Part shown: positions 8,610 through 63,260 of the stretch, piece by piece | Layout of the letters: each line of letters opens with the position of its first letter | How positions within the stretch are numbered: the stretch's first letter is position 1 | DNA from: Verrucomicrobiota bacterium | Lineage (GTDB): Bacteria; Verrucomicrobiota; Kiritimatiellia; CAJWTS01 | Length of the DNA stretch: 64,000 bases | Assembly (NCBI GenBank): GCA_027623315.1 | Contig: JAQBYD010000002.1 | Location: forward strand, 52,140-116,139 | Reading direction: 5' to 3' | Made by a program: the position numbers and the translations under genes | The notes under the pieces: model-generated | Seen by the model: only the letters and a program-made list of their open reading frames with translations | Databases searched by the model: none | Told to the model about the DNA's origin: nothing

Positions 8610-10106
8610 TCAGGGCGCGCTCTTGAGACCCAGTAGGCGGTTCACCGCGTCCGTATCGAGGAGGCCGTCGCCGTGCTTGTCCGCCGAGAGCGTCCCCGAA
8701 TCGGTCGTCAACGCTCCCAGCAGGGCGTCCAGGGCCTCCTCGCCGGTCGCCTCGGGGTGCTGGGTCAAGTAGCGGGCTAGAATGCCGGCCGTGTAGGCGC
8801 TGGCGATGGACGTACCCGCATACTGCCCCGGATCGCCCTCGTACCCGATCGGCATCTCGGCGGTGCCGGGCGCGGTCAGGGTGATGAAGGAGCCGTAGTT
8901 GGATTGTGCCCAGATGGAGCCGTCGGGGTTGCCCGCCGCGACAGCGATGACGCCGTCGAATCCAGCCGGATAGACCGGTTGGCCGATGGGATCGTTCCCA
9001 GCCGCGGCGACCATGATCACGTCTTCGGCTTTAGCATACGCGATGACGTCCTTGAGGAAATCGCTATCCGTGGTTGAGTACCAGCTCATGTTCAAGACGC
9101 GCGCACCGTTTTCTACCGCAATGCCGACGCTCCGGATCAATTCAAAATTGGAGGTGGTGCCGTCGTCGCCGAAGGCCCGGATGGCAACAATCGGAACGCC
9201 CTGCGCGCCGGATGCAGCGACACCCGTCGGCAGAACTACCCCCGCAGCGATCAACGCCATCTGCGTGCCGTGGCCGACCGGGTCGGTCATGTTGGTGGAC
9301 ATGCTCGTGACGTCGTATGCGGCCAGCACCAACGCGTCGAGTCCAGGCATGGACAGCAGGCCGGAATCCAGTACGGCGACGGGAATCGCACCGTTTGGTG
9401 GCGCTTCGGTTTCGGACGCTTCGCCGGCGACTGGAAGCAGTGAGGTCGCATCATAGGTCGATTCGGGAATCGGAATCGTGTAATTCGGCTCCGCCGCGGC
9501 GACTCTCGCGTCGCCGGCCAGCTTCTCGGCAAGTGCCGGAATGTCCTGATCCTCGGACAAGCGGATGCGGTAGATGCCCAGCGCCGGAATGCTCCCCACC
9601 ACCTGGCCGCCAACTTCGCGCAGGAGTCGCTGGGCGTCCTCCAGTGAGACGCCCGGCTTGAGCCTGAGCAGAATCTCGCGTTTCAGGTATCCCGCTGATG
9701 AATTTTCGCCGGCTTTAGGCGCGTCGCCACGGAGTTCGGCTCCAATGGCTTGTGTCTGGGTGCGGTGACCCGGACGATAGACGTGAATCTCGGAGAGACG
9801 CTGCAGATTGCCAAGCGGGCCTTCGATCTTCTCCCACCTTGCGGAGTAGTTCACATCGTCGAAGAGATGATCGAGCGCCTTCGCCAGGTCCTTGTCCTTA
9901 AAGGCCGCGGTGATCTTGACGTCGATCGCCGGGTCAAGGCGGGCATCGACTCCCATCGCGGCGAAAAGGGTCAGGATCTCGAGAACCGACGCATTTTTCG
10001 CATCCACCGACAAGCGATCGCCGCGGAGGTCGAACGCGATGGCAGCGCCCCCAGCGGGCGATGCCGCGAGCAGGAGCGTCAGGAGTAGACTCGAGAAGAT
10101 GCGCAT
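8610..10106 (-). CDS. Secreted S8 family (subtilisin-like) serine peptidase with an N-terminal accessory domain
   Basis: Signal peptide. Catalytic triad contexts VAVLDSG (Asp), HGTQMA (His) and GTSIASAY (Ser). Confidence 0.85.
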   Translation of the reverse strand: MRIFSSLLLTLLLAASPAGGAAIAFDLRGDRLSVDAKNASVLEILTLFAAMGVDARLDPAIDVKITAAFKDKDLAKALDHLFDDVNYSARWEKIEGPLGNLQRLSEIHVYRPGHRTQTQAIGAELRGDAPKAGENSSAGYLKREILLRLKPGVSLEDAQRLLREVGGQVVGSIPALGIYRIRLSEDQDIPALAEKLAGDARVAAAEPNYTIPIPESTYDATSLLPVAGEASETEAPPNGAIPVAVLDSGLLSMPGLDALVLAAYDVTSMSTNMTDPVGHGTQMALIAAGVVLPTGVAASGAQGVPIVAIRAFGDDGTTSNFELIRSVGIAVENGARVLNMSWYSTTDSDFLKDVIAYAKAEDVIMVAAAGNDPIGQPVYPAGFDGVIAVAAGNPDGSIWAQSNYGSFITLTAPGTAEMPIGYEGDPGQYAGTSIASAYTAGILARYLTQHPEATGEEALDALLGALTTDSGTLSADKHGDGLLDTDAVNRLLGLKSAP

Positions 10107-10147
10107 GACGGATACCCGGGTGCGGTGGAGACTATCCCCGTGACGCT

Positions 10148-10727
10148 TCAGGCCGGCAGTGGAACCAGGTCACGGCAGCGCACCGGGGCGCCGCTGCGGA
10201 TGGACTCGTTGGCAGAGATGCCGAGCAGGATCGATGCGGCTCCGTCGATGTGGCCGGCTGCGCGGTGGCGGGGATCCGGGGGAGGATTCCGGGCGAAGAC
10301 GTCCGCGAGCAGGATCGGATCTCCTCCACCATGACCACCCTCTGCTTTCGGAATCTCCACGTCATAGGGGGTCTTGAACATGGGGAAGACGGTGATCGCG
10401 TGACCCGCGCCGACCGCCTGCGCCGCCGCAAGCTCTTCATCGCCCTGACCTGCGATAATGTGTGAACCATGTTTCTCGTAGATCTCGAGCCGGCCCTTGT
10501 CTCCGGTGATCCAGGCGTGGAACCCCTCCCACGGAGCGTAGGCGACCAGCGACCGGGTCATGCCCGTGTTTCTTCTTCAGGTGATCGTTGTAGAAAGCCA
10601 TGCGGATCTCGTTGGGATCGCACAGACCGACGAGTTCGCAATCCTGGGCATGCGGACCGACGATGGCATCTATAAAACTGACGGCGCGTCCTCCGGTACC
10701 GACAACGACATATCGTTTTTTGCCCAT
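10148..10727 (-). pseudogene. Remnant of a Gfo/Idh/MocA-family oxidoreductase: N-terminal Rossmann start fused out of frame to the C-terminal tail, with internal deletion
   Basis: ORF 10437..10727 begins MGKKRYVVVGTGGRAVSFIDAIVGPHAQDCELVGLCDPN (typical Gfo/Idh/MocA N-terminus with GxGxxG) but leaves the family-like sequence after about 55 aa. The overlapping ORF 10148..10561 in another frame reads like the C-terminus of this family (...FKTPYDVEIPKAEGGHGGGDPILLADVF...). Together they are about 190 aa against an expected 350-450 aa. Confidence 0.45.
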
Positions 10728-10869
10728 CAGTAGTATCCTCCAAATCGGGGCACTATGCGTATCCTGCAGTCAAGAGGCAATAAGGGATTCAGCTATCCGT
10801 AACCTCCCGATTCTGACCGCGTCATTCGTGCGCAGCAAATCTTCGTGCGCCGCTTCAGACTTCGTCCCG

Positions 10870-11424
10870 CTAGATCTTCACGAGTTGGTCACCGACACGT
10901 ACCGTGCCGGGCTGGACGATCCGGACATAGATGCCGCGCAGATGCAGACGCTTTCCCTGGTCGGAATTCACGAACTGTACGGCCTCACGACCATAGCGCG
11001 CTGTGAACTTGCGGCAGCCGTTGTGGGGTTGATCGGTGACCTGCACGATGACATCTCCGATCGAAAGGCGCTGACCGACGGAAAGGTTCTCCGAACTCAG
11101 GTTGAGATCCACGTACAGGTTATCGCCGGCAAGCGACCAGCGCTCACGTCCCTGCGCAATCAGATCGATCAGGCGGCTATTGATCACGGCCACCTGGACA
11201 TCTGGGTGTGAACGCCCGTCGTCGAGGTGAAGGTGGCAGTCGGCGGTCCAGCGATCCCCGTGGACTCCTTCCGCCGCGCTCAATTCACACTCCTCCAATT
11301 CGACACGCGCGTCCACGGCGGGCCGAATCGCAATCATTTCGAGGGCTCCGTCGTCGGAGGGGCTCTCGAGGATACGCGCAAGTCCCGCCTTGAGCTGCTC
11401 AAGTGTCAAATGCTCATTCATCAC
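10870..11424 (-). CDS. MOSC domain-containing protein (YiiM-like)
   Basis: 184 aa, beta-barrel MOSC-like sequence (…GDNLYVDLNLSSENLSVGQRLSIGDVIVQVTDQPHNGCRKF…GIYVRIVQPGTVRVGD). Confidence 0.65.
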   Translation of the reverse strand: MMNEHLTLEQLKAGLARILESPSDDGALEMIAIRPAVDARVELEECELSAAEGVHGDRWTADCHLHLDDGRSHPDVQVAVINSRLIDLIAQGRERWSLAGDNLYVDLNLSSENLSVGQRLSIGDVIVQVTDQPHNGCRKFTARYGREAVQFVNSDQGKRLHLRGIYVRIVQPGTVRVGDQLVKI

Positions 11425-39308: not shown

Positions 39309-39309
<1 letters not shown>

Positions 39310-40082
39310 TGCAGCTCTTGTTCCTCGGTACCGGTACGTCGGTTGGCGTACCGGCGATCGGGTGCGCGTGCGCAGTCTGCCGGTCCGACGACCCGCGTAA
39401 CAAGCGGCTCCGGCCGAGCGTCGTGGTGGAGTCGGGTGAGACGCGGATCCTGGTCGACACCTCACCGGATCTGCGAACCCAGGCGTTGACGCACGGGCTC
39501 AGCCGCATCAGTGCGGTCCTGATCACGCACACGCACGCGGACCATATTTTCGGGTTCGATGACGTGCGCGGTTTCAACGTTCACGGCGCGTCGGCGACCC
39601 CGGTGTATGGTATTCCAGACGCCATCGCCGATATGCGTCGCATCTTCCCCTACGTGCTCGGCGACCCGGACGAACCGGGGCGCTACCGCGCCAACGTGGA
39701 GTTCGTGGAGGTGTCGGGCCGCTTCGAAGTGGGCCCGATCCGGATTCAACCGATCCCGGTGATTCACCATCCGCATCCCACGATCGGCTACCTCTTCGAA
39801 GACGCGGGCAAGCGGATCGCCTATGTTCCCGATGCCAGCGACGTGTCGGACGAAACGGTGGAAATGCTGACCGGCGTCGATATCATGATCCTGGACGGGC
39901 TGCGCCATCGTCCTCACTTCTCGCACATGACCGTGGAGCAGTCCGTGGGCATCCTGCGTCGCATTGGCGCCGGCCAATCGTACTTGACCCACATGTGCCA
40001 CGACCTGGATCACGCTGAGACCGAGCGCGATCTGCCCGACACCATCCGCCTCGCCTACGACGGCCTGGTTCTCGAACTCTAG
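39309..40082 (+). CDS. MBL-fold metallo-hydrolase (PhnP-like)
   Basis: HTHADH motif (…VLITHTHADHIFG…) with N-terminal Cys cluster (GCACAVC). Confidence 0.8.
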
Positions 40083-46289: not shown

Positions 46290-47309
46290 TCAAGGCACCG
46301 CCTCGGCCGGCGGGGCATCACCCGGCAGAATCTCGAACGTGGCGGGTGGCGTCTCGATGGTGCCCCTCCAGTAGATCTCCGGAACTTGGTTCGTCACCGG
46401 AATGCTGTAGCGACTCTGCAGGCTGTACGAACCCGGCGGAAGTGCGGGCGACGCCGTTGTCCACTGCAAAGCAGGGCCGTTCTCACGGATGAAGAGGATC
46501 TGGCCGGGTTGCAGGGAATAGGGAACGACGGCGCGCGGGTCCAACGGCATCTCCTTTGCATAGAGGTCGGGTTGAATCTCCGTGGGCTCGCCGTTGGCGT
46601 GGCGGATCTCCAACTGGATTGGCCTGAGACCTGGATGGAGCAAGAGTTGTATCGATGCGTCGGTGCCCTGTCTCAGCGCTACCTGGAAGTCAATGCTGTT
46701 AGTCGCACTACGACGGACCGGAGAGCGCACGAGGGCGGCGGCCTGGAGCCCGCGTTCGTCCGGCTCGCTCCAATTCCATTTCTCGGGGTTGAGGACGTCC
46801 GCAAAGTTCTCCCCGAAGTGGGCCGTGATCCGATTCGGTTCGATAACACAGTGCCGGTTGTAGGGCAGGTAATATCGGCCGGGGGCGTCGGGGAGTTCCC
46901 GAAGCAGAAGCATGTAGCGCGTGCCGTTGCGGAGCCGATGGTTTTTGTATCCTTGCACACGAGTGAGCGCGGCGTCCGAGTAGGGCACAACATTGTGTAG
47001 TGTCGAGACGGTAATCACGGCGGCCGTTGTGACAGACGGTTTTCGGTCGAAGTAGACCGCGTTCACCTGTGCCTGGTAACTCAAGAGTGTGACTCGCTCG
47101 AGTCTGCTTTTGGCGATCTCCTTGGGGAAACCGCTTGTATCCAGTTTTGGCAGGCGCATGGAAGCGGTTTCAAGTGACCCCGTCGTGGTGACCGTGGCTT
47201 CAACGATGAGGTCGCACTGGTGAATCACTGCCGGCGCGCATAGTGCCTCCGTATAGGAGACATCCGTGGAATTCAGAATGGTCAGAGCCAGGGGCAGCAG
47301 GATGTGCAT
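46290..47309 (-). CDS. Hypothetical secreted protein
   Basis: Start set at MHILLPLALTILNS (signal-peptide-like). No recognisable domain. Confidence 0.4.
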   Translation of the reverse strand: MHILLPLALTILNSTDVSYTEALCAPAVIHQCDLIVEATVTTTGSLETASMRLPKLDTSGFPKEIAKSRLERVTLLSYQAQVNAVYFDRKPSVTTAAVITVSTLHNVVPYSDAALTRVQGYKNHRLRNGTRYMLLLRELPDAPGRYYLPYNRHCVIEPNRITAHFGENFADVLNPEKWNWSEPDERGLQAAALVRSPVRRSATNSIDFQVALRQGTDASIQLLLHPGLRPIQLEIRHANGEPTEIQPDLYAKEMPLDPRAVVPYSLQPGQILFIRENGPALQWTTASPALPPGSYSLQSRYSIPVTNQVPEIYWRGTIETPPATFEILPGDAPPAEAVP

Positions 47310-47325: not shown

Positions 47326-47811
47326 TTAGAGTTCGTAGAGTGTCTCTTCGCGTCCAGGCGGCCTGGCCTTGCGTCCGGTCGGTCCTCCGCCGGACATTGC
47401 GAATGGGTCTTCGTTCTCCAATACATCGCCCATCTCCGCTTCGATCGCTTCGGGGTCTTCGCCGGCTTCCATGCGACGCAGGGCCTCCTCCATCGGGCCT
47501 CCGAGTTTCATGCCGGTCATATCAGTGAATTTACGAATCATATTGGCCGCGTCGCGCGGGTTGTCCTCGTTAATCGACCCCGCTTCGGCCGCCAGCGATT
47601 CCATCGCCCGTTCCATCTTGCTTTCATCGAACGGCAGTTCTTCATTGCCCGGCTCTTGGGCATCTCCGACGGCGGCGAACATCGATACCTGGCGGTCAAT
47701 TTTCTGGTGCCCGCATTTCGGGCAGTTTGGCTTCTTCTCCGTATTCACGCGTTTCGACAGAAAACTAAAAATCACGTGACAGTCGGGGCAGTAGAATTCG
47801 TAGATCGGCAT
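47326..47811 (-). CDS. FmdB-family zinc-ribbon protein with acidic C-terminal tail
   Basis: MPIYEFYCPDCHVIF…CPKCG (CxxC…CxxC). Confidence 0.6.
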   Translation of the reverse strand: MPIYEFYCPDCHVIFSFLSKRVNTEKKPNCPKCGHQKIDRQVSMFAAVGDAQEPGNEELPFDESKMERAMESLAAEAGSINEDNPRDAANMIRKFTDMTGMKLGGPMEEALRRMEAGEDPEAIEAEMGDVLENEDPFAMSGGGPTGRKARPPGREETLYEL

Positions 47812-47814
47812 GGG

Positions 47815-47840
47815 GGTTCAGGGGTCAGGGGTCAGGGGTG
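47815..47840. repeat. Short tandem octamer array, GGGGTCAG-like x3 (reads CTGACCCC in the fmdB sense direction)
   Basis: ggttcagg ggtcaggg gtcagggg. It sits immediately 5' of the fmdB-like start codon, whose ATG on the minus strand is at 47811. Same unit family as the arrays at 48160-48290 and 54253-54348. Confidence 0.6.
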
Positions 47841-48157
47841 AGTGGCGCTAACTTAAGGAGGCGTCCCATCCAATTCGAGAACCTTGACGAGAACTACTTT
47901 CGAACGGTGCAGGTTCAGGAATCGGTGGTTTCCGGTTTAGTTCTCGGCAATGTTCTCGATGTGGATCTCCGGAGTGGCTCTCGATCCCGCCGCTGCGGGA
48001 TTCTCGGGATAGTTTGATTACCGTTCTGGACGTCATTTATCCTAGCGGCGTTCGGGTCGGTTGTCAGTTATCAGTTGTCGGTCTCACCGAAATGCTTCTA
48101 TTCGACTCATCAAGTGGAATCTGATTGACCAGGCGATCGGCGGGTTGAAACGACTCT

Positions 48158-48290
<133 letters not shown>

Positions 48291-48294
48291 CCTA

Positions 48295-50121
48295 CTACGT
48301 CTCAAGATGCGACCTTTCGAGCATTTGGTTCAGGTTCTTGACGATCGCCGATTCCTGTCGGTCGCCCAATTGTAGTATTTCTTTCAGGCCGAGTGCAAGG
48401 TGCGGCACGTAGAGTTGCATATAGTTCTTTTTCCGCTCGGCTTCGGCCAGGCGATTTCGTTTGTTGAGATAGACCGATAGGCGCCGTCCGCCTTCCTGGA
48501 GCGCGGAGGCGGCCTCTTTCATGATTTCGCTGTAGTGGGCGACGGCATCCTTGCTTTCGCTGGTGAATGGGACCCAGACGCTGCACATGTGGACGGTGAC
48601 GACCATCGGTCCGATCGGCAGGCCCCGTCGCGGTTGTGGCAGGCCATAGTTCTTCCAGTTGACGTCCGAGACCGCGCGCGTGAGGGCGCAGCCACCGGCC
48701 ATGTAGAGTAGGGGCACGCGATTTGCAAAACGCAGCACACGCGCGGCGTCATCCGCCGGCAGATTTTCGTTCTCACCCGGCTTCGCGTAAGCAATTCCGA
48801 TCTCAATCTGAAATGGATTGCCCCGGTACACCGTGGGCGGTCGCGTGATGGCGGTGTAGAAATCCGCGTCGATCTCTTTCTTGAGCCCCATCAGGATCTG
48901 GTCTTCGCCGATGGGTGAGAGGCAGTCGGTCGGTGGACGCATCAACTTGGTCTCGGCGATGGCCTTGTAGAGTGCCTCGCTCTCGCGATGCGCGATGCGC
49001 GCCGGATTCGCTTTCGGGTTGAGCTTCGCTGTCTGGCAGATCTGCAGGGCGGCTTTCGAGCTGACGCGCGAAAAGTCCTGGTTCAGGGCCGCGCGTATCG
49101 TGCGCGCCGTCGTATCCTTCAACATCTGCATCAGGTTGCCGAGTTCGACACCGTGCGGATGCGGCTTGATCTCGTCCGGCGGCTTCGGGATGCGCTTGCT
49201 GACGCGGAAGAAGGTCACCCACGGAATGTCTGCTTCGGGAGGCGCCTCCTTCTTCGGCGCGGATCTGCCTTTGGCGCTCCTGGCGGACTTCCTGGAGGTC
49301 TCCGTCTCGTCTTCGCCTTTCTTAAGCAAGCGTACACGGTAGTAGAGCTGCAGATGCGGATTCACGATGGCGCACTGCGCGAGGTACTCGTCGACCGATA
49401 GTTTGCCGCGCACGTATGCCGCTTCCATCTCGATGCTGACCGACGTGCCGCGCCGATACGCGACGGGCTTGCCCGGCTTGCCGTTCTCGAGGGTGGGGAA
49501 GAAGGTCGGCTTCCAGTCGATCTCCTCGTCACTGAGTATCGTCGGCTTGTTTCTTCGCGCGTCGATCTGCACGGCAATCTTGTGCGCCTTGCTTCCGTGC
49601 CTCGATGTGATTGTGGTGGAACTGCCGGTCGTAAGCTGTCCGTACATGCCGGCCGCGCTGATGCCGATGCCCTGCTGGCCGCGCGACATGCGCAGGCGGT
49701 GGAATTTGGATCCGTAGAGCAATTTGGCGAAAATTTGCGGGACCTGCGCCTTGACGATGCCGGGCCCGTTATCGGTGATCTCTATACGGAACCGGTTCTC
49801 CCCGGTCTGTTGCATGTCGACGCTGATCTCCGGCAGAAGGTGCGCTTCCTCGCACGCATCCAGAGAGTTATCGACCGCCTCCTTGACGCAGGTTACGAGC
49901 GCACGTCGCGGGCTATCGAATCCAAGCAGATGCCGGTTCTTGAGGAAGAACTCCGATACGGAGATGTCCCGTTGACGAAGGGCCATGGACTCCGCCGTGG
50001 CGGGAGCCTGCCTGGGCCCGCGTTCGGTGGATCGGGTCGCCTTCTTCCTGGCGGGCGTGGCCCTTTTTGTTTTGGCGGGAGCGCTCTGCTTCTTCTTTGG
50101 GGGGGCCTTGCGTTTTGCCAT
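48295..50121 (-). CDS. top6B: DNA topoisomerase VI subunit B (GHKL ATPase, H2TH and transducer domains) with N-terminal Lys/Arg-rich extension
   Basis: Aligns by eye to archaeal Top6B: …SVSEFFLKNRHLLGFDSPRRAL…EAVDNSLDA… (N-box), ITDNGPGI (G1), LYGSKF…SRGQQGIGIS (G2), …KPHPHGVELG…, LRFANRVPLLY (transducer). N-terminus is MAKRKAPPKKKQSAPAKTKRATPARKKATRS. Confidence 0.8.
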   Translation of the reverse strand: MAKRKAPPKKKQSAPAKTKRATPARKKATRSTERGPRQAPATAESMALRQRDISVSEFFLKNRHLLGFDSPRRALVTCVKEAVDNSLDACEEAHLLPEISVDMQQTGENRFRIEITDNGPGIVKAQVPQIFAKLLYGSKFHRLRMSRGQQGIGISAAGMYGQLTTGSSTTITSRHGSKAHKIAVQIDARRNKPTILSDEEIDWKPTFFPTLENGKPGKPVAYRRGTSVSIEMEAAYVRGKLSVDEYLAQCAIVNPHLQLYYRVRLLKKGEDETETSRKSARSAKGRSAPKKEAPPEADIPWVTFFRVSKRIPKPPDEIKPHPHGVELGNLMQMLKDTTARTIRAALNQDFSRVSSKAALQICQTAKLNPKANPARIAHRESEALYKAIAETKLMRPPTDCLSPIGEDQILMGLKKEIDADFYTAITRPPTVYRGNPFQIEIGIAYAKPGENENLPADDAARVLRFANRVPLLYMAGGCALTRAVSDVNWKNYGLPQPRRGLPIGPMVVTVHMCSVWVPFTSESKDAVAHYSEIMKEAASALQEGGRRLSVYLNKRNRLAEAERKKNYMQLYVPHLALGLKEILQLGDRQESAIVKNLNQMLERSHLET

Positions 50122-50219: not shown

Positions 50220-51509
50220 ATGAACATACGCAACATAGTCGCGGTCGGCATCATCCTGTTCTCCTGCCTCGCACCGATCGCTTCGGCGCAGGGCCTGCAC
50301 GACGCCATACAATCCAACGACATCGCCGCGGTGAAGGCGATACTGGCCTCGGGTGAGTTGGATCTCTCCATCCTCAAGACCAAAACGGGATCGACACCGC
50401 TGCACTGGGCGGCGGCCTACGGCGCCGACAAGGTGGTGGACGTGTTGATTCGGGCCGGCGTTGAGGTGGATTCGGCGACGGATAACGGATCAACGGCCCT
50501 GCATTGGGCCGCGCACAAAAACGCCCCCGACATCGCGCGTGTGCTCATAAAGCACAAGGCGGATGTGAATGCCCGAACCACCACGGGATCCGCGCCGCTG
50601 CACTGGGCAGCCAACAAGGACGCCCTGGAATTCGCCACGGTACTGCTCTCCGCGGGCGCTGAAACGGACGCGCAATCGGGCAACGGGTTGACACCACTGC
50701 ACTGGGCGGCGCTGGCGGACGCGGATCGCGTTGCCCGAGTCCTGATTCATCGCGGAGCGACCGTTGATTCGGTGTCCGACGACGGAACCACACCGCTGCA
50801 CTGGGCGTCGCGCACGAATGCGCTCAGGGTGGCCGCGGTGCTGCTGGAGAACCGGGCGAGCCTGCATGCCAAAACCGCGACCGGTGAGACGCCGATCGCG
50901 TGGGCCGGCTCCGAGGAGATGAAAGAGTTGCTCACGAGGTCGCCCGGCGCGGACCTTCTGGCGAAGGCCGGCGCGGGGCGGTCCGCTAAGATGCCGAGCA
51001 AGAAGGTGCCCCGGTTTTACCGCAGTGGCGATGTGTACGTCGGACAATTGAAGGGAAGCCGGCGTCACGGAACCGGCTCGCTTTCGACGCGCCGGGGTGT
51101 GCGTTACTCCGGCGAGTGGGCCGGCAACGTCCCGCACGGACGAGGAAAGCTGACGCTGTCGAACGATGAGACGTACGATGGCCAGTGGGTTCGTGGGGCC
51201 AAGGACGGGCAGGGGGAGTATACGTATGCGAGTGGGGCCAGCTACGTGGGGCAGTGGCGCGGCAACAAGAGGCACGGTCGCGGAGTTTATTCGTTTGCGA
51301 GTGGCGTCAGCTTGCAGGGCATCTGGAAGCAGGATCAGTTGCTTGCGGGCAGCGGGTCATACAAGCTGTCGGATGGTTCGACGTACGAGGGCGAGTGGTC
51401 CGCGGACAAGTTTAATGGCCGCGGCACGCTAACGACCGTCACCGGCAAGAAAGTGGAAGGCCTCTGGAAGAACAATGCCTACGTCGGGCCAGTCGCTATC
51501 GGTCCGTGA
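50220..51509 (+). CDS. Secreted protein with ankyrin repeats (N-terminal half) and MORN repeats (C-terminal half)
   Basis: Signal peptide MNIRNIVAVGIILFSCLAPIASA. About six ankyrin units (…G.TPLHWAA…). About seven MORN units (Y.G.W..N..HG.G). Confidence 0.8.
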   Translation: MNIRNIVAVGIILFSCLAPIASAQGLHDAIQSNDIAAVKAILASGELDLSILKTKTGSTPLHWAAAYGADKVVDVLIRAGVEVDSATDNGSTALHWAAHKNAPDIARVLIKHKADVNARTTTGSAPLHWAANKDALEFATVLLSAGAETDAQSGNGLTPLHWAALADADRVARVLIHRGATVDSVSDDGTTPLHWASRTNALRVAAVLLENRASLHAKTATGETPIAWAGSEEMKELLTRSPGADLLAKAGAGRSAKMPSKKVPRFYRSGDVYVGQLKGSRRHGTGSLSTRRGVRYSGEWAGNVPHGRGKLTLSNDETYDGQWVRGAKDGQGEYTYASGASYVGQWRGNKRHGRGVYSFASGVSLQGIWKQDQLLAGSGSYKLSDGSTYEGEWSADKFNGRGTLTTVTGKKVEGLWKNNAYVGPVAIGP

Positions 51510-54155: not shown

Positions 54156-54252
54156 GGCGACGCCGCGGAGGAAGGTCTCAGGTGTCGTCCTGAAATAGGT
54201 TTCCCTCAAGAATGCTCTTGATCAGGACGATAACTGTAACGATAACCTCTCC

Positions 54253-54348
54253 CTGACACCTGACACCTGACACCTGACACCTGACACCTGACACCTGACA
54301 CCTGACACCTGACACCTGACACCTGACACCTGACACCTGACACCCATG
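54253..54348. repeat. Tandem octamer array (CTGACACC) x12
   Basis: Perfect repeats ending …ctgacacccATG. The ATG at 54346 starts a 77-aa ORF. Confidence 0.9.
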
Positions 54349-62100: not shown

Positions 62101-62280
62101 GCATCGGACCCACGGGTTCACGTGCATGCGGTCGAGTTGTTCATAAAGCTGGGTGAGGATGAGAAGGCGCGCGGCATGCTGAAGGTGCTGCGTGGCAAGC
62201 AAGATTCGCTCCCCGATGACTACAAGTCCCGGCTGGATGCACTCCTTACAGCCATGAGTTCAGGTACCGAGGCGTCCTAA
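59104..62280 (+). CDS. DUF2723-like polytopic membrane domain (GT-C / PMT-like putative glycosyltransferase) fused to a long C-terminal TPR-repeat region
   Basis: About 12 N-terminal TM helices (residues 1 to about 400) then more than 10 TPR-like units (…AFALYDRALAILPDN…, …AIAFYESSLARKPSS…). 1058 aa. Confidence 0.7.
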   Translation: MHRDEHPKKPLPAALVHWIGLGLGSLAAATYLCTLSQGPFPGESARLIASYTGLLPMLPTGQPVWHLLALLGRAIPGVGPDTVLNVVSALLGGVSVGLMYAVVGRLIRYTLHDNTHFAASADRTGMVGGVCAALFLAFSSAFWTVSTRAHTLSLGITLLLGVAWLLLRFTETGHTVFLYALCALLGLAAVEFATVLLFVPIFAFWTFYLLWQRDLIRTGIIARGTAWLLFGLSAYLWGAWLISSTEAYELSQHESYWDVLVYTWRNQYLLLARSLPRVGWLLVVLMTVVPWAASMILMKRGLSGEWDWGFGLLHIVLTVISIGMLFNIPIMPWPMFGQSNLLVTPYLLGAVVYGYVICYWFQLAQWRQIRAETDPSRRRASVACGAIAIAGLVVSIIPLFRNYADTNARGAGHVNALVHEIINDLSDDACLVTDGVLDANLVIAASRLGRDDVKVVNLFGGRSAPYVQHVLNILESPTLAGLGDVGVGPILKEWIRGHPEDMRRAVVMPVSDIWEGSGHVAVPDRFGFVGSNSADLNITSVEESERFWTAVVPGLQDLAAGGNDMLTAIGAHYLRHLSLIANDLGVAMEDQGDDGRAFALYDRALAILPDNVSAKLNQYTMIEQGRHEGSADEYRQRLDAVVERAGKRTVWALAHTYGYVRAPAASIDLGMVWAASGRRSAALREFNRSRSVQFEAPPAARAALADVYLKQFDLDTSQDLYRSVLDEQPQNLHALLGMSRIASARGEIDEARTWAGKAADAGAPESAILLESALLALQQRELSDGRALLESLVLQAPADPTAWALLSDTVSRLNDQEALARCKQSMLRLESKNYLVYAALGAIASGEKDIKQAIAFYESSLARKPSSVSIIRRLAVLHLADGQESKAMQYVRILINRDSGDSFGNWMLARLQVERGELEMAESTLKRCMTRHPHPVIMNDLAVLLLEQARFEEAERVLKDGLQRWPGLYLGWSNLARVLMASDRDQEALVAFRNSLQINASDPRVHVHAVELFIKLGEDEKARGMLKVLRGKQDSLPDDYKSRLDALLTAMSSGTEAS

Positions 62281-63260
62281 TGACGGCACCACCAACGATC
62301 AGCGAATTCCTGAGACGTCACGGTCGCCACTTTAACTCGGCGGCCCTGGTCGATGCTGCGGAGGCCTATCGCAAGCATCTGGATGATGATGGGATCATGA
62401 TGCTCACCATGGCGGGGGCTATGAGCACCGCCGAGATCGGGCTTTCGCTGGCGGAGATGATCCGGCAGGAGAAGGTGCACGCGATCTGCTGTACCGGAGC
62501 GAACCTTGAGGAGGATGTCTTTAACCTGGTGGCGCATGACCACTATGTACGCGTGCCGCACTACCGTGATCTCTCGGCGAAGGATGACGAGGATCTGCTG
62601 AAACGTCATCTCAACCGCGTGACGGATACCTGTATTCCTGAGGAGGAGGCCATGCGGCGGTTGGAGCGGGCAATCCTGGATTTGTGGGTGGCTGCGGATC
62701 AGAAGGGCGAGCGATACCTTCCACACGAGTTCTTCTACCGGGCGATCCTCTCCGGTGCGCTCAAGGAATACTACCAGATCGATCCGGCCGATAGTTGGAT
62801 GGTGGCCGCCGCAGAGAGGAATCTGCCGCTCTACGTCCCCGGCTGGGAGGACTCCACTCTCGGTAACATCTATGCGGGGCATTGCCTGAAAGGAACCATC
62901 CAGAATCCGGTCACGGTCAAGAGCGGCATCGAGTATATGATGACCCTCGCCGATTGGTACCAGTCCGAGTCGAAAGACCGCGCCATCGGATTCTTTCAGA
63001 TCGGCGGCGGGATCGCAGGGGATTTTCCGATCTGCGTGGTACCCATGCTCGAGCAGGATCTGCAGGTCGAGAATGTGCGCAAGTGGGGCTATTTCTGCCA
63101 GATCAGCGATTGTACCACCAGCTACGGTTCCTACTCCGGTGCCGTGCCGAATGAGAAAATTTCATGGGGTAAGCTTGCCGTGGATACGCCGAGTTTCATT
63201 ATCGAGTCGGACGCTAGTATCGTCGCGCCCCTCGTCTTCGCCTACGTTCTGGGGTGGTGA
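62280..63260 (+). CDS. Deoxyhypusine synthase-like protein (bacterial DHS / homospermidine-synthase-like)
   Basis: DHS-family NAD-binding signatures (…GAMSTAEIGLSL…, CTGANLEEDVF, …IGGGIAGDF…). Start overlaps the upstream gene's stop. Confidence 0.75.
   Translation: MTAPPTISEFLRRHGRHFNSAALVDAAEAYRKHLDDDGIMMLTMAGAMSTAEIGLSLAEMIRQEKVHAICCTGANLEEDVFNLVAHDHYVRVPHYRDLSAKDDEDLLKRHLNRVTDTCIPEEEAMRRLERAILDLWVAADQKGERYLPHEFFYRAILSGALKEYYQIDPADSWMVAAAERNLPLYVPGWEDSTLGNIYAGHCLKGTIQNPVTVKSGIEYMMTLADWYQSESKDRAIGFFQIGGGIAGDFPICVVPMLEQDLQVENVRKWGYFCQISDCTTSYGSYSGAVPNEKISWGKLAVDTPSFIIESDASIVAPLVFAYVLGW

What the first reader, a model, noticed from the sequence alone, without database searches (positions are those of the whole stretch)
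48295..50121. Topoisomerase VI B subunit with no A subunit (Spo11/Top6A) in the window, carrying a Lys/Arg-rich N-terminal tail
The 608-aa protein matches Top6B across the Bergerat ATPase, H2TH and transducer regions. Top6A and Top6B are normally adjacent and co-transcribed. Here the neighbours are an FmdB zinc-ribbon gene (downstream) and a divergent ankyrin/MORN gene (upstream), and no Toprim/winged-helix ORF of suitable size exists anywhere in the 64 kb. The about 45-residue N-terminal extension (MAKRKAPPKKKQSAPAKTKRATPARKKATRS…) is histone-tail or NLS-like and not typical of archaeal Top6B. This could be a topo VI with a distant A gene, or a Top6B-like GHKL working with another partner.
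Basis: partly seen in the sequence, partly recalled or inferred. Interest (0 to 1): 0.65.

Follow-up and report, generated by a model that had tools for sequence, protein, structure and literature searches.

The report
Ordinary bacterial Top6B, unlinked from Top6A
This gene encodes a normal-looking ATPase subunit (Top6B) of the DNA-untangling enzyme topoisomerase VI in a Kiritimatiellia-like bacterium; an old rearrangement in this lineage moved its partner gene (Top6A) away from it, so it is not a new kind of enzyme.

Summary
ORF 48295-50121(-) encodes a 608-aa Top6B that scores above the curated equivalog cut-offs. Every catalytic residue is intact. No Top6A exists in the window or in the next ~9 kb.

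The interpretation that it might be a partnerless GHKL protein is not supported.
- The protein belongs to a very large Kiritimatiellia/Verrucomicrobiota/Lentisphaerota topo VI clade.
- In that clade, 49 of 60 informative genomes have top6B directly upstream of top6A; 11 of 60 have the genes unlinked.
- The window protein and three relatives form a subclade in which a widespread FmdB-type zinc-ribbon gene sits in the top6A slot.
- The sister lineage still has Ank <- -> top6B -> top6A, which dates the break.
- The window protein keeps 223 of 225 near-invariant clade positions, the same as controls.
- Zinc-ribbon orthologues elsewhere are never next to topo VI genes (0 of 80 loci).
- Long Lys/Arg tails recur in the clade, on either subunit, including in intact top6B-top6A operons.

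Limitation: I could not locate Top6A of this organism, because no tool gave whole-genome access. "Top6A elsewhere in the genome" is therefore inferred, not shown. Interest is low.

The parts
48295..50121 (-). top6B coding sequence (608 aa), the ATPase (B) subunit of DNA topoisomerase VI
   Evidence: ORF found. NCBIfam equivalogs NF003218 and TIGR01052 are above their cut-offs. Pfam matches. PDB match 2q2e_B at 5.5e-137. The exact protein is P0001 = MDA0321176.1 / MDA1085608.1, annotated 'DNA topoisomerase VI subunit B'.
49999..50121 (-). Lys/Arg/Pro/Ala-rich N-terminal tail (residues 1 to about 41), probably disordered, lying before the conserved TAESMA...SVSEFF start of the GHKL domain
   Evidence: Composition and comparison with 120 relatives. 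Alignment to M. mazei Top6B begins at residue 42. Disorder and DNA binding are inferred, not tested.
49342..49959 (-). GHKL (Bergerat) ATPase domain, residues about 55-260. Key residues: E81 (general base), N85 (Mg2+), D117-x-G119-x-G121, ATP-lid G148/G151/G153
   Evidence: Residue-by-residue alignment to S. shibatae Top6B (E38, N42, D76). All these residues are invariant in 120 of 120 relatives.
49222..49338 (-). Variable charged linker (residues about 262-300, KKGEDETETSRKSARSAKGRSAPKKEAPPEAD) between the GHKL and H2TH domains. It is much longer than in M. mazei and not conserved within the clade
   Evidence: Left unaligned between the two HMMER domains (query 260-302 against about 10 residues in 2q2e_B). 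The conservation track shows this region as unconserved and partly gapped.
48937..49215 (-). H2TH domain (residues about 303-395)
   Evidence: Aligned to M. mazei Top6B from residue 219 onward. 59 of 60 clade-conserved columns are kept.
48430..48936 (-). Transducer domain (residues 396-564), with the W489-K-N-Y492 motif and the switch lysine K524
   Evidence: Pfam PF09239 covers 396-564 at 186 bits. K524 aligns to S. shibatae K427. W, Y and K524 are invariant in 120 of 120 relatives.
47812..48294 (-). 483-nt spacer between top6B and the zinc-ribbon gene, bounded by inverted GTCAGGN heptamer arrays (48158-48293 and 47814-47839). Relatives have only 25-38 nt here, so this is a lineage-specific insertion at the old rearrangement junction
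   Evidence: Sequence. Tandem repeats. Inverted arms. Spacing in relatives. No Rfam match.
47326..47811 (-). FmdB-type zinc-ribbon gene (161 aa, acidic C-terminal half). It occupies the slot where relatives have top6A
   Evidence: Pfam Zn_ribbon_8 at 43.6 bits. Orthologues are 63% identical and sit downstream of top6B in L009 and L010. 0 of 80 other orthologue loci have topo VI genes nearby.
50220..51509 (+). Divergently transcribed ankyrin/MORN-repeat gene. This is the conserved upstream neighbour of top6B in the subclade and in its sister lineage
   Evidence: Pfam Ank and MORN matches. Gene call. Homologue upstream in L009, 43% identical over 405 aa. Ank-repeat gene upstream in L169.

Best explanation
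The gene encodes a functional, canonical B subunit of a bacterial type IIB topoisomerase (topo VI) in a Kiritimatiellia-like PVC bacterium.

Mechanism, from established knowledge of the family: two Top6B subunits bind ATP through their GHKL domains, dimerise and capture one DNA duplex. The transducer, with its switch lysine, relays this to two Top6A subunits. These cleave a second duplex through a Toprim/winged-helix tyrosine, so the first duplex can pass through. The result is decatenation and relaxation.

In the common ancestor of this protein and three relatives (P0001-P0004), a rearrangement just downstream of top6B broke the ancestral top6B-top6A operon. It placed top6B next to an unrelated, widespread zinc-ribbon gene. 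Top6A is most likely encoded elsewhere in the chromosome.

The Lys/Arg-rich N-terminal tail is a lineage-variable, probably disordered DNA-binding appendage of a kind that recurs on either subunit in this clade.

Shown here: identity, intact motifs, conservation, the synteny history, and the recurrence of tails. Inferred: the presence of Top6A elsewhere, and the function of the tail.
For: Identity. Top6B equivalog HMMs are above their cut-offs. There is a full-length match to solved Top6B structures. E81, N85, D117, G119, G121, lid G148/G151/G153, K524, W489 and Y492 are intact and invariant in 120 of 120 relatives.

No relaxation of constraint.
- P0001 differs at 2 of 225 columns that are at least 97% conserved. 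Controls encoded next to Top6A differ at 0-2.
- Mean identity to the clade is 69%, against a clade-wide mean of 72%.
- At the Top6A-proximal end of the transducer (residues 531-608), P0001 keeps 35 of 40 conserved columns and P0004 keeps 39 of 40. The main clade averages 94% +/- 4%, with a minimum of 82%.

Synteny history.
- Relatives P0114, P0080, P0023, P0113 and P0079 have top6A immediately downstream.
- Of 60 informative representative genomes, 49 have the genes adjacent, 1 has them 9.5 kb apart, and 10 have an orphan top6A. These include a coherent all-orphan Top6A clade at 90-98% identity. Unlinked topo VI genes are therefore common and stable in this group.
- P0001-P0004 form a clade with NJ bootstrap 73/100. 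P0003 and P0004 also have top6B followed by the zinc-ribbon gene.
- The sister lineage P0029 has Ank <- -> top6B, then top6A 8 nt later.

The zinc-ribbon protein is not a partner: 0 of 80 orthologue loci carry Top6B or Top6A.

The tail is not tied to the split.
- Long-tailed P0113 and P0079 have an adjacent top6A.
- Top6A itself carries such tails in L169 and in P0269.

Literature: topo VI is documented in 17 bacterial families including PVC, often where topo IV is absent (PMC11302465).
Against: - Top6A of this organism was not found. It is not in window coordinates 1-73260. It is not among 75 representative-genome loci. It is not among the top 120 hits of two Top6A protein searches, and none of the candidates carries an MDA03.../MDA10... 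accession like P0001. These searches could easily have missed it, so this is absence of evidence.
- P0001 and P0002 sit on a somewhat longer branch. Root-to-tip distance is 0.22, against 0.18 +/- 0.02 for the others.
- P0001 and P0002 keep slightly fewer moderately conserved GHKL columns: 93.6% against 97.7% +/- 1.4%.
- The subclade has only 73% bootstrap support, from a simple NJ tree.
Confidence: 0.8

Rival explanations
1. Top6A has been lost from this lineage. Top6B persists as a GHKL ATPase working alone or with a different, non-Spo11 partner (neo-functionalised orphan Top6B).
For: - No Top6A lies within about 73 kb, and none was recovered for this organism.
- The unlinked arrangement is old and shared by two sub-lineages that are 70% identical to each other.
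- The P0001/P0002 branch is slightly longer than average, and GHKL conservation is slightly lower.
Against: - 223 of 225 near-invariant Top6B positions are kept, including the switch lysine and the WKxY motif. These matter only in the context of strand passage with Top6A.
- The Top6A-proximal end of the transducer is within the clade's normal range.
- Orphan Top6A genes that are themselves highly conserved exist in 10 of 60 related genomes. Physical separation is therefore compatible with a working enzyme.
- To my knowledge, no stand-alone function is known for a canonical Top6B.
Confidence: 0.08
2. The FmdB-type zinc-ribbon protein encoded downstream is a new accessory or replacement subunit. 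It would be functionally coupled to Top6B, with its acidic tail pairing with the basic Top6B tail.
For: - The top6B -> zinc-ribbon order is conserved across proteins only 70% identical.
- The zinc-ribbon orthologues are 63% identical end to end.
- The two proteins have complementary charge: a basic Top6B tail and an acidic zinc-ribbon C-terminal half (sequence).
Against: - The zinc-ribbon family is widespread, with more than 527 matches in JGI metagenomes. None of the best 80 orthologue loci, about 50 of which have at least 1.8 kb upstream, has Top6B or Top6A nearby.
- No zinc-ribbon homologue lies within 10 kb of top6A in 75 genome loci.
- In the window the two genes are separated by a 483-nt repeat-bounded spacer containing a promoter-like site, so they need not be co-transcribed.
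- Long-tailed Top6B proteins occur without this neighbour.
Confidence: 0.04
3. The gene is a decaying remnant: a non-functional Top6B left behind after the operon was disrupted.
For: The partner gene is missing locally. A repeat-rich insertion lies directly after the stop codon.
Against: - The 608-codon ORF is intact.
- GC3 is 0.78, like the neighbouring genes.
- The identical protein occurs in at least three independent assemblies, and 608-aa variants at 90% identity or more occur in JGI and ENA data.
- All catalytic residues are intact.
- Conservation equals that of controls.
Confidence: 0.02

Closest known systems
Methanosarcina mazei topoisomerase VI B subunit (PDB 2Q2E chain B)
   Same: The GHKL, H2TH and transducer regions align end to end (E = 5.5e-137). 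They share the catalytic Glu/Asn/Asp, the glycine lid, the switch lysine and the WKxY motif.
   Different: - The window protein lacks the archaeal C-terminal Ig-like domain. The alignment ends near residue 585 of 608, against 496 of 621 in M. mazei. PMC11302465 reports the same absence for bacterial Top6B.
- It has a roughly 40-aa Lys/Arg N-terminal tail.
- It has a roughly 14-aa insertion at residues 204-222.
- It has a much longer charged GHKL-H2TH linker.
- The KGRR loop is reduced to RGK.
Bacterial topo VI of PVC and other bacteria (Allen & Maxwell 2024, PMC11302465)
   Same: The same enzyme in the same superphylum. It was acquired from archaea and is thought to act as the decatenase where topo IV is missing.
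   Different: - The main text of that survey does not mention Kiritimatiellia (0 occurrences). Here the clade is very large: 8000 scored hits, with the top 120 all at 66-100% identity.
- In this lineage the two genes are unlinked.
- Whether this organism lacks topo IV could not be tested.
Eukaryotic TOPOVIBL / Rec102 / MTOPVIB (Top6B-like partners of Spo11)
   Same: They are encoded apart from their Spo11/Top6A partner, and they derive from Top6B.
   Different: Those proteins lack the H2TH domain and have degenerate GHKL motifs (PMC11302465). The window protein has a full H2TH domain and perfect GHKL motifs. It is a true Top6B, not a Top6B-like protein.
Lys-rich tails of actinobacterial topoisomerase I and of HU/Hlp (from my own knowledge, not tested here)
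   Same: They are low-complexity Lys/Ala/Pro-rich extensions on bacterial DNA-topology proteins. These extensions raise DNA affinity or processivity.
   Different: Those tails are C-terminal and sit on type IA enzymes or on nucleoid proteins. Here the tail is N-terminal, next to the ATP gate of a type IIB enzyme, and nothing has been tested about it.

Membership tests
DNA topoisomerase VI subunit B (Top6B) | Full-length match to curated Top6B models, above their trusted cut-offs | tested here: met
   NF003218 at 603.9 bits (cut-off 274). TIGR01052 at 467.4 bits (cut-off 380.7).
DNA topoisomerase VI subunit B (Top6B) | GHKL/Bergerat ATP-binding motifs: catalytic Glu, Mg-binding Asn, DxGxG, and the glycine-rich ATP lid | tested here: met
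   E81, N85, D117/G119/G121 and G148/G151/G153 align to S. shibatae E38, N42 and D76. They are invariant in 120 of 120 relatives.
DNA topoisomerase VI subunit B (Top6B) | H2TH domain between the GHKL and transducer domains (the hallmark of type IIB enzymes) | tested here: met
   Residues 303-395 align to M. mazei Top6B from residue 219 onward. 59 of 60 clade-conserved columns are kept. No structure prediction was run.
DNA topoisomerase VI subunit B (Top6B) | Transducer domain with the ATP-sensing switch lysine | tested here: met
   PF09239 covers residues 396-564 at 186 bits. K524 aligns to S. shibatae K427 and is invariant.
DNA topoisomerase VI subunit B (Top6B) | A Top6A (TP6A_N + Toprim) partner encoded in the same genome | tested here: inconclusive
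   Absent from window coordinates 1-73260. Not recovered by the genome-collection scan or by two protein searches. The whole genome could not be searched.
DNA topoisomerase VI subunit B (Top6B) | top6B-top6A operon (typical, but not defining) | tested here: not met
   A zinc-ribbon gene occupies the downstream slot. 11 of 60 related genomes also have unlinked genes.
DNA topoisomerase VI subunit B (Top6B) | ATP-dependent strand passage or decatenation as an A2B2 complex | not testable with these tools
   Needs biochemistry.
Top6B-like proteins (TOPOVIBL / MTOPVIB / Rec102) | Degenerate GHKL motifs and no H2TH domain | tested here: not met
   The GHKL motifs are intact and the H2TH domain is present. 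The protein is therefore not filed here.
MutL and other GHKL ATPases | Match to the family model above its cut-off | tested here: not met
   Best MutL hit is 27.8 bits against a cut-off of 180. Histidine-kinase models score 24 bits or less against cut-offs of 450 or more.

The most novel reading that the evidence does not exclude
The P0001-P0004 lineage may have lost Top6A altogether, while keeping a fully constrained, Lys/Arg-tailed Top6B. That Top6B would then work with a different DNA-cleaving partner, or as a stand-alone ATP-driven DNA clamp. It would be a bacterial parallel to the way eukaryotes re-partnered Top6B-like proteins.
Probability: 0.07. Interest if true: 0.75.

Novelty: new member of a known kind. 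Interest (0 to 1): 0.2.

Why it matters
It matters little for enzyme discovery. This is a correctly annotated Top6B (MDA0321176.1 / MDA1085608.1) from a known enzyme family.

There are two modest points of value. First, topo VI is far more widespread in Kiritimatiellia, Verrucomicrobiota and Lentisphaerota than the published surveys suggest, and roughly one genome in five has the two subunit genes unlinked. A missing neighbour is therefore weak evidence of a missing partner. Second, variable Lys/Arg-rich tails recur on either subunit in this clade. That is a simple, testable handle on how a type IIB topoisomerase engages DNA.

If Top6A were truly absent from this lineage, the case would become interesting.

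Tried and rejected
1. Looked for an intact, fragmentary or decayed Top6A in the window with tblastn and two HMMs. Found nothing.

2. Tried to find this organism's Top6A in five ways. All were negative or uninformative.
- A genome-contig scan with a Top6A alignment returned 75 loci, none from JAQCJJ01. The scan used only two peptide patterns and one genome per species.
- A protein search with an orphan-clade Top6A.
- Accession matching against P0001's MDA numbers.
- A synthetic query (the sister lineage's K/R tail plus a clade-consensus core) meant to pull out tail-bearing Top6A. It found P0269, which belongs to a different organism and sits next to its own Top6B.
- Extending about 9 kb past the right edge of the window.

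3. Used tetranucleotide similarity to match orphan-Top6A loci to the window's organism. It did not discriminate: the best r was 0.91, against 0.96 between the two halves of the window.

4. Tested whether a long K/R tail marks Top6B genes that are unlinked from Top6A. Rejected, because P0113 and P0079 are long-tailed and have an adjacent top6A.

5. Tested whether the zinc-ribbon protein is a topo VI partner. Rejected, with 0 of 80 loci.

6. Considered whether the 339-aa gene downstream of the zinc-ribbon gene could be a divergent Top6A. Rejected: it has no Pfam hit, no Top6A HMM hit and a signal-peptide-like N-terminus, and its position is not conserved in L009.

7. Searched the repeat-bounded spacer against Rfam. 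No match.

8. Did not attempt dN/dS. Only relatives at about 70% amino-acid identity have DNA in hand, so synonymous sites would be saturated. Did not run a structure prediction, because the sequence evidence was already decisive.
Full report
OBSERVATION

The ORF at 48295..50121 on the minus strand is real. It is 608 aa and begins MAKRKAPPKKKQSAPAKTKRATPARKKATRS. Family evidence:
- It scores 603.9 bits against the NCBIfam Top6B equivalog NF003218 (cut-off 274), and 467.4 bits against TIGR01052 (cut-off 380.7).
- It matches Pfam Topo-VIb_trans at 186 bits over residues 396-564, and also HATPase_c.
- It aligns to the solved Methanosarcina mazei Top6B (2q2e_B) at E = 5.5e-137, across the GHKL, H2TH and transducer regions.

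A Zn_ribbon_8 (FmdB-type) gene lies downstream at 47326..47811(-). A divergent ankyrin/MORN gene lies upstream at about 50220..51509(+).

I tested the claim that no Top6A lies in the 64 kb.
- tblastn with three relatives' Top6A gave a best E of 0.63. A positive control gave E = 0.
- HMM searches of all six-frame translations gave a best E of 5.5 with a 3-sequence model and 0.99 with a 69-sequence bacterial plus archaeal model.
- The ~9 kb beyond the right edge of the window has none either.

SOURCE ORGANISM AND CLADE

The exact protein is already public as MDA0321176.1 / MDA1085608.1, 'MAG: DNA topoisomerase VI subunit B [Verrucomicrobia bacterium]'. It occurs in GCA_027593205.1 and in an ENA metagenome assembly.

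It belongs to a very large clade found in Kiritimatiellia, Verrucomicrobiota and Lentisphaerota MAGs. The search scored 8000 candidates and all passed E <= 1e-10. The best 120 are 66-100% identical. Pairwise identity within the clade averages 72%. The window protein averages 69% to it.

Bacterial topo VI is documented in 17 families including PVC bacteria, often where topo IV is lacking (Allen & Maxwell 2024, PMC11302465). The main text of that paper does not mention Kiritimatiellia.

LOCATION OF TOP6A IN RELATIVES

In five relatives that I looked up individually, a 378-392-aa TP6A_N + Toprim gene follows top6B directly. In one of them a small PDDEXK gene sits in between.

A scan of one genome per species with a Top6A alignment returned 75 loci. 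Among the 65 Kiritimatiellia-type loci:
- 49 have top6B immediately upstream (median gap about 135 nt between the ends of the tblastn matches).
- 1 has top6B 9.5 kb upstream.
- 10 have at least 3 kb of upstream sequence and no top6B anywhere in the locus.
- 5 are too short to tell.

Five of the orphan genes (L015, L017, L085, L028, L031) form a coherent group that is 90-98% identical. Adjacency is therefore the rule (82%), but unlinked topo VI genes are common and stably inherited in this clade (18%).

HISTORY OF THIS LOCUS

The two closest informative relatives, P0003 and P0004, are about 70% identical to the window protein. They also lack a downstream top6A. Instead they have, 25-38 nt after top6B, a zinc-ribbon gene whose product is 63% identical end to end to the window's. 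One of them also has the ankyrin/MORN homologue upstream, 43% identical over 405 aa.

P0001-P0004 form a clade in a neighbour-joining tree, with bootstrap support of 73/100. Their sister is P0029. That locus reads Ank-repeat gene <- -> top6B -> top6A, with top6A starting 8 nt after top6B.

So the Ank/top6B junction is ancestral. The break fell just downstream of top6B. It happened after the P0029 lineage diverged and before P0001/P0002 split from P0003/P0004.

In the window, the junction has since gained a 483-nt spacer bounded by inverted GTCAGGN heptamer arrays.

STATUS AS A WORKING TOP6B

The residues that define the ATPase and its coupling are all present and are invariant in 120 of 120 relatives:
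- E81, the general base, aligned to S. shibatae E38.
- N85, which binds Mg2+, aligned to N42.
- D117-x-G119-x-G121, aligned to D76.
- The lid glycines G148, G151 and G153.
- The switch lysine K524, aligned to K427.
- W489-K-x-Y492.

At the 225 alignment columns that are at least 97% conserved in the clade, the window protein differs at 2. Five controls encoded next to Top6A differ at 0-2.

Using columns that are at least 80% conserved, region by region:
- GHKL: 103 of 110 kept.
- H2TH: 59 of 60 kept.
- Transducer: 86 of 92 kept.
- C-terminal end, residues 531-608, the part that holds Top6A in the solved structures: 35 of 40 kept, while P0004 keeps 39 of 40. The clade averages 94% +/- 4%, with a minimum of 82%.

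P0001 and P0002 sit on a somewhat longer branch (0.22 against 0.18 +/- 0.02). They are at the low edge of the range for the GHKL region. No domain shows a collapse of constraint. This pattern is what one expects of a Top6B that still works with Top6A.

THE ZINC-RIBBON PROTEIN AS A POSSIBLE PARTNER

A metagenome scan with the three-sequence alignment found more than 527 homologues. The best 80 are full length and 55-64% identical, and about 50 of them have at least 1.8 kb of upstream sequence. None has Top6B or Top6A nearby. No zinc-ribbon homologue lies within 10 kb of top6A in the 75 genome loci.

The family is a widespread small protein with other homes. Its place beside top6B here is best read as an inherited rearrangement junction.

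THE LYS/ARG TAIL

A short basic leader (MAKKK...ETAESMA) is present in most of the 120 relatives listed. It is also what top6B genes adjacent to top6A carry in the representative genomes, where true leaders are 9-17 aa.

Long Lys/Arg-rich expansions occur in about 10 of the 120 relatives. The whole P0001-P0004 + P0029 group has them. So do P0113 (54 aa) and P0079 (41 aa), and both of those have top6A immediately downstream.

Top6A itself carries a tail of about 60 aa in L169 and a tail of about 50 aa in P0269. P0269 sits next to a short-leader Top6B.

The tail is therefore a recurrent, lineage-variable appendage of ordinary topo VI in this clade. It is not a mark of a partnerless protein. Its composition suggests a disordered, DNA-binding segment beside the ATP gate. 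That is inference only.

WHAT COULD NOT BE DONE

I could not find the Top6A of this organism.
- The genome scan used only two peptide patterns and one genome per species.
- Two protein searches list only the best 120 of thousands of near-equidistant clade members. None of the candidates shares P0001's accession range.
- No tool fetches a whole MAG.

'Top6A elsewhere in the genome' is therefore inferred from conservation and from the behaviour of related genomes. It is not shown.

VERDICT

This is a canonical bacterial Top6B, correctly annotated in public databases. Its gene was separated from top6A by an old rearrangement, in a clade where such separation is not rare. Confidence is about 0.8. 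The residual novel reading is that Top6A was truly lost and Top6B was re-partnered. I put that at about 0.07. It would be settled by a single HMM search of the MAG's contigs. Interest is low (0.2).

Noticed in passing
window 48158-48293, 47814-47839 and 54252-54341: GTCAGGN heptamer microsatellite arrays lie on the minus strand. A 20-mer made of the unit gives 29 matches, against 0.01 expected by chance. Two arrays flank the top6B/zinc-ribbon spacer in inverted orientation, with arms up to 32 nt, 78-90% complementary and about 350 nt apart. The third follows leuS. Both NCBI MAG contigs, JAQCJJ010000001.1 and JAQCJJ010000015.1, end inside it, so it breaks assemblies. There is no Rfam match and the function is unknown.
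   Followed up: partly
L169:2606-2872 and L171:1850-3112 (P0269): In two lineages Top6A itself carries a 50-60-aa Lys/Arg/Ala-rich N-terminal tail. Basic tails therefore appear on either topo VI subunit in this bacterial clade.
   Followed up: partly
L015, L017, L085, L028, L031 (Top6A at about 10000-11130 in each): A coherent clade of Top6A genes has no top6B within 10 kb in any member. The genes are 90-98% identical and 373 aa long. The related protein cluster P0122 has 57 members, on contigs of up to 2.7 Mb. The matching Top6B group was not identified.
   Followed up: partly
protein hits P0122, P0149, P0164, P0176, P0195, P0231, P0273: NCBI names these bacterial Top6A proteins (TP6A_N + Toprim) 'DNA topoisomerase IV subunit A'. 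The name is misleading and could hide topo VI in surveys that rely on names.
   Followed up: no
L005:11803-12183 and L006, same coordinates: In one relative a small PDDEXK_3-family gene is inserted between top6B and top6A.
   Followed up: no
window 62280-63260 (+): A 326-aa protein of the deoxyhypusine synthase family (PF01916) is encoded in this bacterium. It directly follows a 1052-aa TMEM260_N/TPR protein.
   Followed up: no
window 39309-40082 (+): A 257-aa metallo-beta-lactamase-fold protein has precomputed Pfam hits that include the anti-Pycsar Apyc1 family (PF23023). It lies next to an H+-pyrophosphatase gene.
   Followed up: no
window 46290-47309 (-): A 339-aa protein with no Pfam hit and a signal-peptide-like N-terminus lies 17 nt downstream of the zinc-ribbon gene. 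It is not conserved at this position in L009.
   Followed up: partly
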